A DNA stretch of 64,000 bases from Mobula hypostoma (GCF_963921235.1 NC_086097.1:20648001-20712000), one strand, 5' to 3'; counted from the stretch's first letter, positions 7,810 through 52,064 are shown. Made by a program: numbers and translations. Notes: generated from the letters alone by a model not told the origin.

Positions 7810-8453
7810 GTACGTTTACACTAACTGAGCATGAAAGAAGTCACAAAGAAGGAAAGGCCACTTGAACTGCCTGAGCCTTCTCCAGTCCTCAAATCTGATC
7901 TTCCAATCCCGGTAATTCTTCTTCTTTCCAGCCAGGCAGGTTATTCCAGAGCCAAGTAAAAAATTTTATTCTTGAACTAGATTTAAAACGTACTGATTTC
8001 TGATTATCTCTTCAGTTTTCCTGGTTACTTTGAGGTGCTTTTAAATATTTACAGTTGTATTTAATACTTCATGTGCTGCTATGTGATCCAATTTAATAAT
8101 TGTCTAAGTTTATAAAGACTAAGTTTCTCCAGTGTTTCCCAATAGTGTATTCTCTTCCACTCGGGGATCAGTGTTATGGTCCTTCAGTCAGGTACCTTTA
8201 TGAAGACTTCACTGCTTTGCATTTTTTTCCTGTGACTCATTTAGTTGCACTTATGCCTCTTGTATCAGTAGATTCTGGGTTCAAATCCCACTCCAGAGTT
8301 TTGAGCGTGAAAATCTTATCTGACATTCCACTGAAGTAATGTCAGAAGCATTGGCTTTCAGATGAGATGCCAACCTTTTTTTTTCTAAGTGAATGCAAAT
8401 AATACCATGGGACTTATTTAAACAAGAACAATGTAGAGCTACTAGGACTTGAT

Positions 8454-8729
8454 GTTTCAATCCCTTTGGTAATTTGGCACTCTCGATGTTGGCGGTGGGT
8501 TTGGAGTGGTGACAAGGAGGGAGGGTAGGTACGTTATCGGGGTCATCAGGTGGGCACCCTCCTTCTTTGATGTTTCGTTGATAAGCCCACGACGTCTCCA
8601 GAGGGCTCAACGGTGCTACCTGGCGTCCCAGATACACCCCCCTCAGTACCATACCCTCAGTTACAGCCCAGTTGTTGTCTTTCCTTTTAATCCAAATCCA
8701 ATTGCTGCTTTCTTCTGCTGCATTTGACA
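8454..8729 (-). mobile_element. 5'-truncated RLE non-LTR retrotransposon (HERO-like), extreme 3' end
   Basis: 10-bp TSD AGGACTTGAT at 8444-8453 and 8730-8739; translates AAEESSNWIWIKRKDNNW, homologous to AAERAWRWLWMRKSDPW at the end of the 48-51.7 kb element; CpG-rich. Confidence 0.75.
8534..8606 (-). ncRNA. Non-circularly permuted hammerhead-like RNA motif in the HERO-like 3' UTR
   Basis: Minus strand GCCCUC..GAC-GUC^GUGGGC-UUAUC-AAC-GAAA-CAUC..GAGGGU-GCCCAC-CUGAUGA-CCCC-GAUAA. Confidence 0.6.
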
Positions 8730-9074
8730 AGGACTTGATTGCTCTGTCTACTATTTATCCCTTAATCGATATCAGTAAAGCAGGTTAACTGGCTATTAAC
8801 ATTACTGCTTTTGTCAACTTGCTAGACACACACCAGCTGTTACATTTTCATTCATTACCACTATGTATGATTTTGAAAACCCTTCATTAGTTAAGCAGTG
8901 CTTTGGGGTGGTCTACTAAGATGTCAGAGTTATAAATAAATGCAAGCCAGACAAAGATACCTAAGTAGAAATGAACATCAAAAACCTGCAGAAGCTGGAG
9001 ATCTGAAATAAGAACGGAAAATAATAGAAACACTCAGCAGGGCGGGCAGCATCAACAGGAGTGAGACTGACTGA

Positions 9075-10442: not shown

Positions 10443-10911
10443 CCATAAGACCATAAGACATAGGAGCAGAATTAGGCCAGTGAGATTAAATGCATGTTTT
10501 TTAGGTTTTTATTTTTTGGAGTGTAGAAAGTTGAGTGGGACTTGATAGAGGTGTTTAAAATTATGAGGGGGATTGATAGAGTTGATGTGGATAGTCTTTT
10601 TCCATTGAGAGTGGGGAAGATTCAAATAAGAGGACACGAGTTGAGAGTTAAAGGACAAAAGTTTAGGGGTAACATGAGGGGGAACTTCTTTACTCAGACA
10701 GTAGTAGCTGTGTGGAACGAGCTTCCAGCAGAAGTGGTTGAGGCAGGTTCGATGTTGTCATTTAAAGTTAAATTGGATAGATATATGGACAGGAAAGAAA
10801 TGGAGGGTTATGGGCTGAGTGCAGGTCGGTGGGACTAGGTGAGAGTAAGAGTTCGGCACGGACTAGAAGGGCCGAGATGGCCTGTTTCCGTGCTGTAATT
10901 GTTATATGGTT
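10443..10911 (+). mobile_element. CR1 3' fragment fused to a short inverted CR1 tail
   Basis: ORF IEVFKIMRGIDRVD...FFTQTVVAVWNELP; 9-bp TSD ATAAGAAGA at 10434-10442 and 10912-10920. Confidence 0.8.
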
Positions 10912-19578: not shown

Positions 19579-20915
19579 CATAGTCATAGTCTTACTTTAT
19601 TGATCCCGGGGGAAATTGGTTTTCATTACAGTTGCACGGTAAATAATTAAATAGTAATAAAACCATAAAATAGTTAAATAGTAATATGTAAATTACGCCA
19701 GGAAATAAGTCCAGGACCAGCCTATTGGCTCAGGGTGTCTGACCCTCCACGGGAGGAGTTGTAAAGTTTGATGGCCACAGGCAGGAATGACTTCCTATGA
19801 CGCTCTGTGCTGCATCTCGGTGGAATGAGTCTCTGGCTGAATGTACTCCTGTGCCCAACCAGTACATTATGTAGTGGATGGGAGACATCGTCCAAGATGG
19901 CATGCAACTTGGACAGCATCCTCTTTTCAGACACCACCGTCAGAGAGTCCAGTTCCATCCCCACAACATCACTGGCCTTACGAATGAGTTTGTTGATTCT
20001 GTTGGTGTCTGCTACCCTTAGCCTGCTGCCCCAGCACACAACAGCAAACATGATCGCACTGCCCACCACAGACTCGTAGAACATCCTCAGCATTGTCCAG
20101 CAGATGTTAAAGGACCTCAGTCTCCTCAGGAAATAGAGACGGCTCTGACCCTTCTTGTGGACAGCCTCAATGTTCTTTGACCAGTCCAGTTTATTGTCAA
20201 TTTGTATCCCCAGGTATTTGTAATCCTCCACCATGTCCACACTGACCCCCTGGATGGAAACAGGGGTCACTGGTACCTTAGCTCTCCTCAGGTCTACCAC
20301 TAGTTCCTTAACCTTTTTCACATTAAGCTGCAGATAATTCTGCTCACACCATGTGACAAAGTTTCCTACCGTAGCCCTGTGCTCAGCCTCATCTCCCTTG
20401 CTGATGCATCCAACTATGGCAGAGTCATTAGAAAACTTCTGAAGATGACAAGACTCCGTGCAGTAGTTGAAGTCTGAGGTGTAAATGGTGAAGAGAAAGG
20501 GAGACAAGACAGTGCCCTGTGGAGCCCCAGTGCTGCTGATCACTCTGTCGGACACACAGTGTTGCAAGCACACGTACTGTGGTCTGCCAGTCAGGTAATC
20601 AAGAATCCATGACACCAGGAAAGCATCCACCTGCATCGCTATCAGCTTCTCCCCCAGCAGAGCAGGGCGGATAGTGTTGAACGCACTGGAGAAGTCAAAA
20701 AACATGACCCTCACAGTGCTCGCTGGCTTGTCCAGGTGGGCGTAGGGACGGTTCAGCAGGTAGATGATGGCATCCTCAACTCCTAGTCAGGGCTGGTAGG
20801 CGAACTGCAGGGGATCTAAGTGTGGCCTGACCATAGGCCAGAGCAGCTCCAGAACAAGTCTCTCCAGGGTCTTCATTATGTGGGAGGTCAATGCCACCAG
20901 TCTGTAGTCATTGAG
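19579..20915 (-). mobile_element. 5'-truncated Rex1/Babar LINE; 330-aa RT C-terminal ORF, inactive
   Basis: FFDFSSAFNTI, GAPQGTVLSPFLF; catalytic motif reads KFSND instead of DD; upstream in-frame TGA; LNDYRLVALT at the 5' break; (GACTAT)n tail. Confidence 0.9.
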
Positions 20916-50394: not shown

Positions 50395-51769
50395 TTCCCT
50401 CCCCCTCCCTTCCCCTGTCCCTACTTCACTCTGCCCCCTCCTCCAGCTGCCTATCACCTCCCTCATGGTTCCACCTCCTTCTACTACCCATTGTGTTTTT
50501 CCCTATTCCTTCTTCACCTTTCCTGCCCGTCCCCTCCTTGCTTCCCCTCCCCCACAACTTTATCATTCCCCTTACTGGTTTTTCGCCTGGAACCTACCAG
50601 CCTTCTCCTTCCCACCCTCCCCCCACCTTTTTTTTAGGGCCTCTGGCCCTTCCCTCTACAGTCCTGACAAAGGGTTCCGGCCCAAAACGTTGACCGATCT
50701 TTTCCACGGATGCTGCCCAACCTGCTGAGTTCCTCCAGCGTGTTGTGAGGAGGTGTGAGTTGTGCTGGAGGAACCACGTGCCAGCAAGACTGTTGGAGTG
50801 CGGCAACAAGGCGCGTGGACAAGATGGGACAAGGTAACATTTCGTCGGGGGAAATTTGGCGTGCTGGACCCCACCACATCAAGTTCCTGATCCAGTCGGT
50901 CTGTGATGCCCTGCCAAACGCAGCAAACCTCTACTGCTGTGGCAAGGCTGAAATACCAGCATGCTCCTTGTGCCGGGTGAAGGGGACATGAGAGCGCATC
51001 CTCAGCTGCTGCCCGTGAGCCCCTGGGGGAGGGGTGTTATTGTTGGCGCCACGACCAGGTGCTGAAGATAGTGGCTGACACCTTGTGCACAGCTGTCACC
51101 CAGGCCAAACACCATTGCCCAGCAAAGCAGGCAATTGCTTTTATCAAGGCTGGAGAAAAAGGCTCAAACCCAGTGCAAGGAGAATGCCGGCCTTTTCTGA
51201 AGAGCAAAGGACTGGCAATTGAAAGCCAACCTCAGATTCCCTGAGCACATCTTCTTGACAATGCTTTGGCCAGACATAGTGCTGGCGGGACCATGAGTCA
51301 GCAGGCAGGCAGTCACGTTGGAGCTGACTGGTTCCTGGGAAGATCGGACAGAGGTGGCCCATGGAAGGAAAAAGACAAAGTACTGGAGGAGTGCAGAAGC
51401 GAGTGGTGGTGGGCACACAGAGGCAGGCTGCAGAGGGTTTGCTGGTCAATCCCCCCCCCCGCAGAGCCCACAGCCGCATGGGCACTGCGGGAGCCCAGAA
51501 GGGGAAAGTCATCATAGAGGCAGCAGAGAGAGCCTGGAGATGGCTGTGGATGAGGAAGAGTGATCCGTGGCACAATACTTCTGATCAACCCCGGCTGGAT
51601 CACCCGGGCGAGTGAGGCTGATGTTGAAGGACCTGAAACACTGTTTGACCCTGGGTTACATCACTGATGCTGTCTCTGAGTGCATCGCAAGATGTATCAT
51701 TATATCAGGTCATTTGGATTTATTGAGTATGTCTGCAAGGAAATTAATCCAGAGTTGTATATGGTGACA

Positions 51770-52064
51770 CGTGGCCAAGTGGTTAAGGCATTGGTCTAGT
51801 GATTTGAAGGTCGTTAATTCGAGCCTCAGCTGAGGCAGCGTGTGTGTCCTTGAGCAAGGCACTTAACCACACATTGCTCTGTGATGACACCGATGCCAAG
51901 CTGTATCAGCCTTAGTGTCCCTCCCTTGGACAACATCGGTGGTGTGGAGAGGGGAGACTTGCAGCATGGGCAACTGCTGGTCTTCCATACAACCTTGCCC
52001 AGGCCTGTGCCTGGAAACTTTCCAAGGCGCAAATCCATGGTCTCATGGGACTAACGGATGCCTC
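51770..52064 (+). mobile_element. tRNA-derived SINE (same family as 19041-19342)
   Basis: TGGCCAAGTGG A-box, TTCGAGCC B-box; perfect 12-bp TSD TATATGGTGACA at 51758-51769 and 52065-52076. Confidence 0.88.

What the first reader, a model, noticed from the sequence alone, without database searches (positions are those of the whole stretch)
8534..8606. Non-circularly permuted, pseudoknotted hammerhead-like motif in the 3' UTR of a HERO-like RLE retrotransposon
Seen: the minus strand has all three hammerhead core strands, in the order [stem III'-GUC^-stem I] ... [stem II'-GAAA-stem III] ... [stem I'-CUGAUGA-stem II]. This fits none of types I, II or III. Stem I is a perfect GUGGGC (8590-8585) / GCCCAC (8555-8550) directly abutting GUC and CUGAUGA (8549-8543). 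Stem III is GACGU/ACAUC, with one mismatch explainable by CpG decay. Stem II is UUAUC/GAUAA, separated from the core by an internal loop. An extra helix GCCCUC (8606-8601) / GAGGGU (8561-8556) locks the knot. Knowledge: CUGANGA, GAAA and NUH form the hammerhead core; RLE elements such as R2 are known for 5' HDV-like ribozymes. I recall that natural non-circularly permuted hammerheads have been reported, but I cannot confirm whether this HERO 3' UTR case is among them. Inference: this is a ribozyme or a ribozyme-fold protein-binding element used in 3'-end processing or TPRT template recognition. Caveat: the inserted copy retains about 135 nt downstream of the predicted cut and lacks the canonical G10.1-C11.1 pair, so cleavage may be slow, regulated or absent.
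Basis: partly seen in the sequence, partly recalled or inferred. Interest (0 to 1): 0.9.

Follow-up and report, generated by a model that had tools for sequence, protein, structure and literature searches.

The report
Rearranged hammerhead RNA in a retrotransposon tail
A 69-base RNA fold with all the catalytic letters of the hammerhead ribozyme, wired in an order not met in the papers searched, sits just after the protein-coding part of an ancient family of jumping genes found in fish and many other aquatic animals.

Summary
The motif is real and under selection. The window copy (minus strand 8611-8543) belongs to a family of at least 1,448 copies (first-look candidates) of a LINE that encodes a restriction-like endonuclease (RLE). 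61 of 80 distant relatives fetched from metagenome contigs carry the same domain after the ORF (52 of 58 with at least 300 nt of 3' sequence).

The core is nearly invariant: CUGANGA with a free N7, GAAA, and UH with H never G. Four helices covary: 89.8% of cells paired against 61.7% in shuffles, 0 of 500 shuffles as high.

Its stem II does not. The conserved stem II, with the canonical G10.1-C11.1 pair, uses a strand upstream of the cleavage block. The fold is therefore a circular permutation of the published type-SGC hammerhead, with the break between A9 and G10.1. In 32 of 51 elements a K-turn signature links stem III to the fourth helix.

Self-cleavage is inferred, not shown. No genomic copy starts at the predicted cut (0 of 30, 0 of 412, 0 of 13), so the RNA that is copied into DNA is uncut. 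I found no report of a hammerhead in RLE LINEs.

The parts
8433..8747 (-). 5'-truncated copy of the RLE-type LINE family. The element's 3' end is ...CUAGUAGCUCUAC at 8433.
   Evidence: 29 other genomic copies align to query positions 14-328 of window 8760-8380 at 92-96% identity. Homology stops at the same 3' base in all of them.
8662..8747 (-). Remnant of the ORF's C-terminus (..AIKSLSNAAEESSNWIWIKRKDNNWA). The family's stop codon is lost in this copy through a small deletion.
   Evidence: Homologues are 1076-1197 aa RT proteins.
8607..8611 (-). Stem II 5' strand (10.1-10.5), GUUGA. G10.1 is 8611.
   Evidence: pairs with 8577-8581. Helix 88.8% paired; 5 of 5 pairs change on both sides.
8600..8606 (-).
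   Evidence: 94.1% paired; 6 of 7 pairs change on both sides.
8597..8599 (-). GGA: non-bulged strand of the K-turn-like internal loop (G8598, A8597).
   Evidence: the GA / NNN-GA signature is present in 32 of 51 elements.
8592..8596 (-). Stem III 3' strand (16.5-16.1), GACGU.
   Evidence: 96.1% paired.
8591..8591 (-). C17. The predicted cleavage is 3' of it, between 8591 and 8590.
   Evidence: By analogy with hammerheads. At this position the alignment has C 22, U 19, A 14, G 0.
8585..8590 (-). Stem I 5' strand, GUGGGC.
8582..8584 (-). UUA linker between stem I and stem II.
8577..8581 (-). Stem II 3' strand (11.5-11.1), UCAAC.
8573..8576 (-). GAAA (G12 A13 A14 A15.1).
   Evidence: G12 in 55 of 56; A13, A14 and A15.1 in 56 of 56.
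8569..8572 (-). Stem III 5' strand, CAUC. A8571 is a decayed G.
8563..8568 (-). AAAGAA: bulged strand of the K-turn-like loop (3-nt bulge, G8565, A8564, then A8563).
8556..8562 (-). Helix H4 3' strand, GGAGGGU.
8550..8555 (-). Stem I 3' strand, GCCCAC.
8543..8549 (-). CUGAUGA (C3-A9).
   Evidence: C3 in 54 of 56, U4 56, G5 56, A6 55, G8 54, A9 55. N7 is U 31, C 12, A 8, G 5.
8433..8542 (-). 3' tail of the element downstream of the ribozyme-like domain.
51595..51672 (+). Second, decayed copy of the same RNA domain from another lineage of the element (core reads CUGAUGC; U16.1 lost).
   Evidence: model R1 scores 53.9 bits, E 4e-13; broken RLE frames lie upstream.

Best explanation
The 69 nt at 8611-8543 (minus strand) are one copy of a conserved RNA domain. 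It sits between the stop codon and the 3' tail of an old clade of LINEs that carry a reverse transcriptase and a C-terminal restriction-like endonuclease.

The domain has the complete hammerhead catalytic core and four helices: stems I, II and III around the core, plus a helix H4. H4 ties the far ends of stems I and II to the far end of stem III. In most lineages the link is a K-turn-like bend.

In strand order it is a circular permutation of the experimentally validated type-SGC hammerhead. The helix that joins stems I and II in that type is here closed onto stem III, and the backbone is open between A9 and G10.1.

I think it most likely is a true hammerhead-class ribozyme that cuts after C17 (between 8591 and 8590), but slowly, reversibly or only when not held by the element's protein. 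The RNA that is reverse-transcribed is uncut, and the same fold probably also serves as the 3' UTR structure that the element's protein recognises.

Shown: the fold, its conservation, its covariation and its position. Inferred: cleavage, its regulation and protein binding.
For: Core conservation over 56 model hits: U4, G5, A13, A14 and A15.1 in 56 of 56; A6, A9, G12 and U16.1 in 55; C3 and G8 in 54. N7 is free. H17 is C 22, U 19, A 14, never G. This is the hammerhead rule set (recalled).

Two related contigs read UUGACAA, that is U3-A8 in place of C3-G8. The same core covariation is noted in the hammerheads of Penelope-like elements (PLEs) (PMC4209133, passage read).

Covariation (alignment A6, 55 distinct rows, 25 pairs):
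- 89.8% of cells paired against 61.7% in shuffles (0 of 500 as high).
- Covariation score 0.653 against 0.177.
- Slid partners give 36-45% paired.
- 23 of 25 pairs change on both sides.
- Stems I and II were not part of the model that made the alignment and still pair at 80.5% and 88.8%.

Presence: 61 of 80 related loci, and 52 of 58 with at least 300 nt downstream. Descriptor controls: 0 of 80, 0 of 80 and 3 of 4000.

The four-helix architecture maps one-to-one onto type-SGC ribozymes, which cleave in vitro at the homologous site and need all four helices (PMC10085705, sections 13, 14 and 18 read).
Against: No direct evidence of cutting.
- Of 30 copies sampled by their last 97 nt, 5' ends lie from -814 to -5 relative to the cut, and none at +1.
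- Of 412 exact matches to the 19 nt after the cut, 410 are preceded by C or T. The 2 preceded by a purine are point mutants of longer copies.
- All 13 copies with a complete 5' UTR carry an upstream 3'-end fragment of random length. It starts at +16, +24, +74, +75, +106, +132, -50, -69, -120, -192, -304, -305 or at or beyond -385 from the cut, and 7 of the 13 span the uncut site.

The strand after A9 has no supported pairing partner, so the CUGANGA strand is anchored on one side only. This could weaken catalysis. A break between A9 and G10.1 has not been tested in any hammerhead I could read about.

Core letters also build the fold, so their conservation does not by itself prove catalysis.
Confidence: 0.55

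Rival explanations
1. The fold is a purely structural module. It is the 3' UTR element that the LINE's protein binds to start target-primed reverse transcription. It keeps the hammerhead core only because that core builds the shape, and it does not cut in vivo.
For: No copy starts at the cut. Templates span the site. The domain fills the space between the stop codon and the terminal hairpin or tail, where R2-type proteins bind their RNA. An R2 protein 'binds a pseudoknotted' RNA (PMC12222951, abstract start seen in the search listing only).
Against: Every position that hammerhead catalysis needs is kept, the one free position (N7) is free, and G is avoided at position 17. The same four-helix fold cleaves in vitro in type-SGC RNAs. 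No protein-binding data exist for this clade.
Confidence: 0.35
2. It is a 5'-processing ribozyme for head-to-tail arrays. It cuts read-through transcripts in the upstream copy's 3' UTR, so that the downstream copy's RNA starts at G1.1. Hammerheads in PLE pseudo-LTRs and HDV-like ribozymes at R2 5' ends work in this way.
For: Head-to-tail neighbours are common. In 14 metagenome loci the N-terminus of a next element starts 350-855 nt after the ORF end. Ten of these are among the 29 loci with at least 900 nt downstream (example). All 13 copies in this genome that reach the 5' UTR start are preceded by a 3'-end fragment with one shared junction. The cut lies at the 5' side of the ribozyme, as in 5'-processing ribozymes.
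Against: The model predicts upstream fragments that start exactly at +1 (158 nt long). Observed: 0 of 13 do, and 7 of 13 are longer. Among dispersed truncated copies, 0 of 50 have a downstream neighbour.
Confidence: 0.12
3. One reading: a plain type-SGC hammerhead whose stem II is UUAUC (8584-8580) with GAUAA (8538-8534), downstream of CUGAUGA and set off by an internal loop.
For: The two strands are complementary in this copy, and as UUAUC/GAUGA in the family majority. In a few lineages (L074, L076, L088, L090, L038) the letters after CUGANGA can also pair with the strand before GAAA.
Against: Across 48 elements, an element's own partner scores no better than partners from other elements (9.98 against 9.80; its own partner outscores at least 90% of foreign partners in only 1 element). 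No consistent register exists. The competing upstream strand pairs in register with 5 of 5 covarying pairs and restores G10.1-C11.1.
Confidence: 0.04
4. It is a chance resemblance inside a young repeat, with no selected structure.
For: Copies inside this genome are about 93% alike and say nothing on their own. The nested minimum-energy fold of the 73 nt is unremarkable (z = -1.14).
Against: The domain recurs with different helix sequences in relatives whose proteins are only 35-73% identical. Controls are near zero.
Confidence: 0.01

Closest known systems
Type-SGC hammerhead ribozymes (HRIMA-1 motif and variants; Eckert, Friedrich, Weinberg and Weinberg 2023, PMC10085705)
   Same: The conserved blocks come in the same order (cleavage site, GAAA, CUGANGA). 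There are the same four helices: I, II, III and a helix at the far ends of I and II. A short linker joins stem I directly to the stem II 3' strand. The core is pseudoknotted.
   Different: The stem II 5' strand and one strand of the fourth helix lie upstream of the cleavage block instead of after CUGANGA, so their 'block C' is split between A9 and G10.1. The fourth helix is closed onto stem III, often by a K-turn-like loop. The published RNAs come from soil, spruce and sludge metatranscriptomes beside hairpin ribozymes (supplement passage). These are DNA copies in animal retrotransposons.
Classical hammerhead ribozymes, types I-III (Rfam hammerhead families)
   Same: Identical core letters, the A15.1-U16.1 pair, the NUH site, G10.1-C11.1, and three helices around the core.
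   Different: The strand order cannot be reached by opening one loop. No Rfam model matches. There are no loop-loop contacts; a three-way junction with H4 takes their place.
Hammerheads of Penelope-like elements (Cervera and de la Pena 2014, PMC4209133)
   Same: A hammerhead core in the terminal region of a retroelement that forms head-to-tail partial duplications. The U3-A8 core variant occurs in both.
   Different: Those are minimal type I motifs in elements with a GIY-YIG endonuclease. This is a four-helix permuted fold in an RLE LINE. The endonuclease type of PLEs is recalled and appears in the abstract listing.
HDV-like ribozymes at the 5' end of R2 and other LINEs (Eickbush and Eickbush 2010; Ruminski et al. 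2011; seen only in reference lists)
   Same: A self-cleaving fold in an RLE LINE that cuts at its own 5' edge.
   Different: A different ribozyme class. Those lie at the 5' junction and this one in the 3' UTR. Their cutting is shown; here it is not.
Kink-turn (K-turn) motif
   Same: The sequence signature: a helix closed by G-C, a 3-nt bulge, tandem GA opposite GA, then a second helix (32 of 51 elements).
   Different: Only the sequence pattern was tested. The definition is recalled. I found no K-turn reported inside a hammerhead (listing only).

Membership tests
Hammerhead ribozyme | CUGANGA strand with only N7 free | tested here: met
   C3 in 54 of 56, U4 56, G5 56, A6 55, G8 54, A9 55. N7 is U 31, C 12, A 8, G 5. 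The window copy reads CUGAUGA.
Hammerhead ribozyme | GAAA strand, with A15.1 paired to U16.1 | tested here: met
   G12 in 55 of 56; A13, A14 and A15.1 in 56 of 56; the pair of columns 32-55 is U-A in 54 of 55.
Hammerhead ribozyme | Cleavage triplet NUH with H not G | tested here: met
   H17 is C 22, U 19, A 14, G 0. The descriptor excluded G. The model did not exclude it but was built from seeds without G.
Hammerhead ribozyme | Stems I, II and III abut the core strands, with a G10.1-C11.1 pair | tested here: met
   all three helices covary. The 10.1-11.1 pair is G-C in 44, G-U in 6 and A-U in 1 of 55.
Hammerhead ribozyme | A9 continuous with 10.1 (at most 1-2 inserted nt in known alignments, as stated in PMC10085705 section 13) | tested here: not met
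   the 10.x strand lies about 60 nt upstream of CUGANGA. The letters after A9 have no supported partner.
Hammerhead ribozyme | Site-specific self-cleavage leaving 2',3'-cyclic phosphate and 5'-OH ends | not testable with these tools
   Indirect genomic tests found no ends at the site. Only assembled contigs of runs of unknown type were available.
Type-SGC hammerhead (Eckert et al. 2023) | Blocks S, G, C in this order, each block uninterrupted | tested here: not met
   The order of the conserved letters is S-G-C. Block C is interrupted, because its stem II strand is 5' of block S.
Type-SGC hammerhead (Eckert et al. 2023) | A fourth helix joining the far ends of stems I and II | tested here: met
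   H4 follows the 10.x strand and precedes the 2.x strand, as in the published consensus line. It is 94.1% paired.
K-turn | Helix, 3-nt bulge, tandem G.A/A.G, helix | tested here: inconclusive
   The sequence signature is in 32 of 51 elements and in the window copy. The other 19 have other bulges. The kink itself cannot be tested here.
RLE-type (R2-group) LINE | Reverse transcriptase followed by a Cys/His motif and a PD..(D/E)xK-like nuclease at the C-terminus | tested here: met
   Homologues of 1076-1197 aa carry PF00078 and PF13966. Invariant C36, H44, C49, P144-D145, E160-L161-T162 and K176 in alignment A1. Reading these as CCHC and RLE motifs is recalled knowledge. Pfam itself gives no hit for the 255-aa C-terminus.
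HERO clade of RLE LINEs | Groups with Repbase HERO elements (HERO-1_BF, HEROTn and others) in an RT phylogeny | not testable with these tools
   No reference sequences are held. Hosts of the homologues (teleosts, lamprey, amphioxus, bivalves) overlap those of the named HERO elements (PMC7650587 passage).

The most novel reading that the evidence does not exclude
An ancient clade of autonomous LINEs, found across aquatic animals, carries an active hammerhead in a topology outside the six permutations thought possible: block C is split, and a K-turn closes a cage. In this reading the cut-and-rejoin balance of the ribozyme is set by the element's own protein. The ribozyme would then act as a switch between messenger and template RNA. 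Alternatively it would make unit-length or circular RNAs from head-to-tail arrays.
Probability: 0.3. Interest if true: 0.9.

Novelty: new variant of a known kind. Interest (0 to 1): 0.8.

Why it matters
Non-circular permutations of a ribozyme are so far known from one study of environmental RNA. Here the same four-helix fold appears in a further strand order that the study's block rule excludes. It sits in DNA genomes of animals, at over a thousand copies in one vertebrate genome, and inside a defined mobile element. This gives three things:
- a natural test of how much backbone continuity the hammerhead core needs, with the break between A9 and G10.1;
- a candidate answer (a K-turn) to the published puzzle of how the end of stem III reaches the ends of stems I and II;
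- a new link between small ribozymes and LINEs with a restriction-like endonuclease, whose 3' UTR RNA is what their protein must recognise.

All of it can be tested with short transcripts.

Tried and rejected
- **Rfam.** No family reached threshold on the whole window. At E up to 10 on 8350-8800 there were only three unrelated weak hits.
Neither beats partners taken from other elements (9.98 against 9.80; 11.72 against 12.08).
- **Fixed-register search for stem II downstream of CUGANGA.** No antidiagonal.
- **RNA evidence.** No RNA holder was listed. All 23 runs are assembled contigs of guessed type. Four were laid and showed no ends or joints. Two short contigs that start 2 nt after the cut sit beside the variable CpG at the cut, and I read them as assembly breaks.
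- **5'-end pile-up at the cut.** None found.
- **Downstream neighbours of dispersed copies in this genome.** 0 of 50.
- **Nested minimum-energy fold.** z = -1.14. It pairs part of H4 with part of stem I and is not informative for a knotted RNA.
- **Six 6.6-kb stretches upstream of 3' ends.** All copies were 5'-truncated.
- **MAFFT alignments A2 and A3.** They put stems out of register, so I used a covariance model (R1) built from 10 in-register seeds instead.
- **Rows dropped.** Two low-scoring hits of R1 at other places (L088:486-561, L056:1093-1143) and the weak true hit in L073 were dropped by setting E to 0.3. L101 was left out and L105 out.
- **Earlier notes of this scan.** Nothing on this sequence.

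Full report
**1. What is in the window**

The stretch is part of a repeat. A 381-nt query found 1,602 first-look candidates in the 3.47-Gb genome. The 40 that were scored include the window's own stretch; the other 39 are 92-96% identical. Thirty loci, the first being the window's own, share homology over query positions 14-328. So the window copy is 5'-truncated near 8747, and the element ends at 8433, which is 158 nt after the predicted cut.

The majority letters of the copies give a perfect stem III, so the window's mismatch is a CpG-to-CpA change.

Upstream lies the end of an ORF. A longer copy gives a 255-aa C-terminus. Its relatives are proteins of 1076-1197 aa with a reverse-transcriptase domain, from teleosts, lamprey, amphioxus and bivalves. 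The C-terminus keeps invariant Cys/His, PD, ELT and K positions. I read these, from recalled knowledge, as the zinc knuckle and restriction-like endonuclease (RLE) of R2-group LINEs. 'HERO' could not be tested. The hosts fit the named HERO elements listed in PMC7650587 (passages read).

**2. Relatives elsewhere**

With an alignment of nine C-termini I fetched 80 loci from metagenome contigs. They are 35-73% identical in protein.

A plain descriptor asks for UH, a stem I of at least 4 bp touching UH and CUGANGA, and GAAA with a stem III of at least 3 bp. It hits 50 of the 80 loci. The controls:
- 0 of 80 reverse complements;
- 0 of 80 upstream coding stretches on either strand;
- 3 of 4000 shuffles;
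- 4 hits in the remaining 340,650 nt of the loci.

Several misses are single copies with one decayed core letter, such as CG to CA at C11.1-G12. Two related contigs read UUGACAA and two read UUGAAGA. That is U3-A8 and U3.G8 in place of C3-G8. The same core covariation is reported for hammerheads of Penelope-like elements (PLEs) (PMC4209133, passage).

**3. The fold**

An element's own partner scores no better than partners from other elements (9.98 against 9.80), and no register is shared.

Instead, the five or six letters just before GAAA pair with the letters immediately 5' of H4. Examples are GUUGA/UCAAC here, GAUGA/UCAUC, GGGUC/GACCC, GCUCC/GGAGC, GGCGGC/GCCGCC and GGUGGC/GCCACC. This restores G10.1-C11.1.

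I built a covariance model (R1) from ten in-register seeds, using only H4 and stem III as its structure. At E up to 0.3 it found 56 sites in the 81 loci plus the window. These include the finding (8541-8613, E 0.045) and a second, decayed copy at 51595-51672 on the plus strand.

On that alignment the full four-helix structure gives:

| Measure | Observed | Control |
|---|---|---|
| Cells paired | 89.8% | 61.7% in shuffles (0 of 500 as high) |
| Covariation score | 0.653 | 0.177 in shuffles |
| Cells paired with partners slid by 1-3 columns | – | 36-45% |
| Pairs with changes on both sides | 23 of 25 | – |

Per helix, the paired share is stem II 88.8%, H4 94.1%, stem III 96.1% and stem I 80.5%. 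The last proposed pair of stem I is mostly unpaired. The alignment was fitted to H4 and stem III only, so stems I and II are the fairer tests.

Core letters are nearly invariant. N7 is free, and position 17 is C, U or A but never G.

Taking descriptor and model together, 61 of 80 loci carry the domain. That is 52 of 58 with at least 300 nt downstream and 59 of 67 with at least 150 nt.

**4. How it relates to published permutations**

Eckert et al. (PMC10085705; sections 13, 14, 15 and 18 and supplement passages read) divide the hammerhead into blocks S, G and C. They assume that the blocks cannot be interrupted. They describe type SGC with a fourth helix at the far ends of stems I and II, and they show cleavage and compensatory rescue for all four helices.

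Reading their consensus line, the order is 16.x-C17-1.x-linker-11.x-GAAA-15.x-J5'-2.x-CUGAUGA-10.x-J3'.

The order here is 10.x-H4a-16.x-H17-1.x-linker-11.x-GAAA-15.x-H4b-2.x-CUGANGA.

So H4 corresponds to their helix J. Their 3' end is joined to their 5' end, and the chain is opened between A9 and G10.1. This is a circular permutation of type SGC that splits block C. It therefore lies outside their six types.

In 32 of 51 elements, the window copy included, stem III and H4 are joined by GA on one strand and NNN-GA on the other, next to a G-C closing pair. That is the K-turn signature as I recall it. The other 19 elements have other bulges at this place.

A sharp bend here would let H4 reach the far ends of stems I and II. 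The published paper names this geometry as unexplained. The bend is my inference.

**5. Does it cut?**

I could only test this indirectly, and all three tests were negative.

- **Copies sampled by their 3' end.** If cut RNA were copied, insertions should start at G1.1. Thirty copies chosen by their last 97 nt start between -814 and -5 relative to the cut.
- **Exact matches after the cut.** Of 412 exact matches to the 19 nt after the cut, 410 follow C or T. The two that follow a purine are longer copies with a point change.
- **Full-length copies.** All 13 copies in the genome that reach the start of the 5' UTR are preceded, across one shared junction, by a fragment of the element's own 3' end. 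The fragments start at +16, +24, +74, +75, +106, +132, -50, -69, -120, -192, -304, -305 or at or beyond -385 from the cut. None starts at +1, and seven of them contain the uncut site.

So the RNA that becomes DNA is uncut. This fits slow, reversible or protein-blocked cleavage, or no cleavage at all.

After a cut the two products would still be held by stem II, H4 and stem III, about 17 bp in this copy. That should favour re-joining (inference).

Public runs gave only assembled contigs of guessed type, so they provide no information on RNA ends.

**6. Context**

- The domain starts a median of 60 nt after the end of the protein match.
- Head-to-tail neighbours are frequent in the metagenome loci. 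In 14 loci the N-terminus of a next element begins 350-855 nt after the ORF end. Ten of these are among the 29 loci with at least 900 nt of downstream sequence.
- Among dispersed truncated copies of this genome, none of 50 has such a neighbour.
- This layout recalls the pseudo-LTRs of PLEs. A 5'-processing role in co-transcripts is therefore a live but unsupported rival.

**7. Literature**

- 'type-SGC' occurs in one paper of the library.
- No paper holds hammerhead, HERO, retrotransposon and ribozyme together.
- The only paper holding 'hammerhead ribozyme', 'non-LTR retrotransposon' and 'restriction-like endonuclease' together is an R2 engineering paper, seen as a listing only.
- A November 2026 paper's introduction lists the retrotransposon-linked ribozymes and has none in RLE LINE 3' UTRs (PMC13725137, passages).
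- The supplementary text of PMC10085705 that is held does not mention transposons in connection with type SGC. Its alignment files were seen only in part.
- About 1.7 million PubMed Central articles and most subscription journals are not searched.

**8. Verdict**

The structured RNA is real and ancient, and it is a hammerhead-core fold in a new strand order and a new host. Catalysis is likely by homology but not shown, and its role is open.

Noticed in passing
window 51595-51672 (+), with broken frames at about 50750-51600: A second, decayed copy of the same RNA domain from another lineage of the element (53.9 bits). It is preceded by RLE-like frame fragments (..ELTGSWEDRTEVAHGRKKTKY.., ..AAERAWRWLWMRK..) and followed by a GAUGUAU tail.
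   Followed up: partly
loci L129, L145 and L163: Three independent copies or fragments begin at the same base, 69 nt before the cut and just after the family's stop codon. This may be a preferred stop of reverse transcription or an RNA end.
   Followed up: no
L150:778, L151:658, L153:663 and ten more places; also L052 and L098: Full-length copies join the element's 3' end to a conserved 5' UTR (..GGGAGAAAACCAGUGACUGC.. then GGAAAGAC repeats) across one shared junction. The 5' UTR motif recurs in distant metagenome lineages.
   Followed up: partly
window 8631-8620 (-): A small hairpin, CUGG-GACG-CCAG, lies just upstream of the domain. One relative (L098) has CCGG/CCGG, a change on both sides. 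Seen by eye only.
   Followed up: no
L054, L056, L064, L085, L107, L113 downstream of CUGANGA: Many lineages end with a short hairpin (GCAGU..ACUGU) followed by AUU. In L107 a (TTG)n/(ATT)n run follows. This is probably the terminal signal and tail of the element.
   Followed up: no
L074, L076, L088, L090, L038: In these lineages the letters after CUGANGA can also pair with the strand before GAAA (for example CGCC/GGUG). A classical stem II may therefore compete with the upstream one.
   Followed up: no
window 51765-51830 (+) and L031:1752: A tRNA-like stretch (GUGGCCAAGUGGUUAAGGC..) that looks like a SINE head lies next to the second copy and also in another locus.
   Followed up: no
window 19722-20786 (-) and 10527-10838 (+): An open 354-aa frame and a 103-aa frame. 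By their letters (..WNxLP.. tail motif, a recalled resemblance) they look like pieces of other LINE families. They were not scanned against any family library.
   Followed up: no
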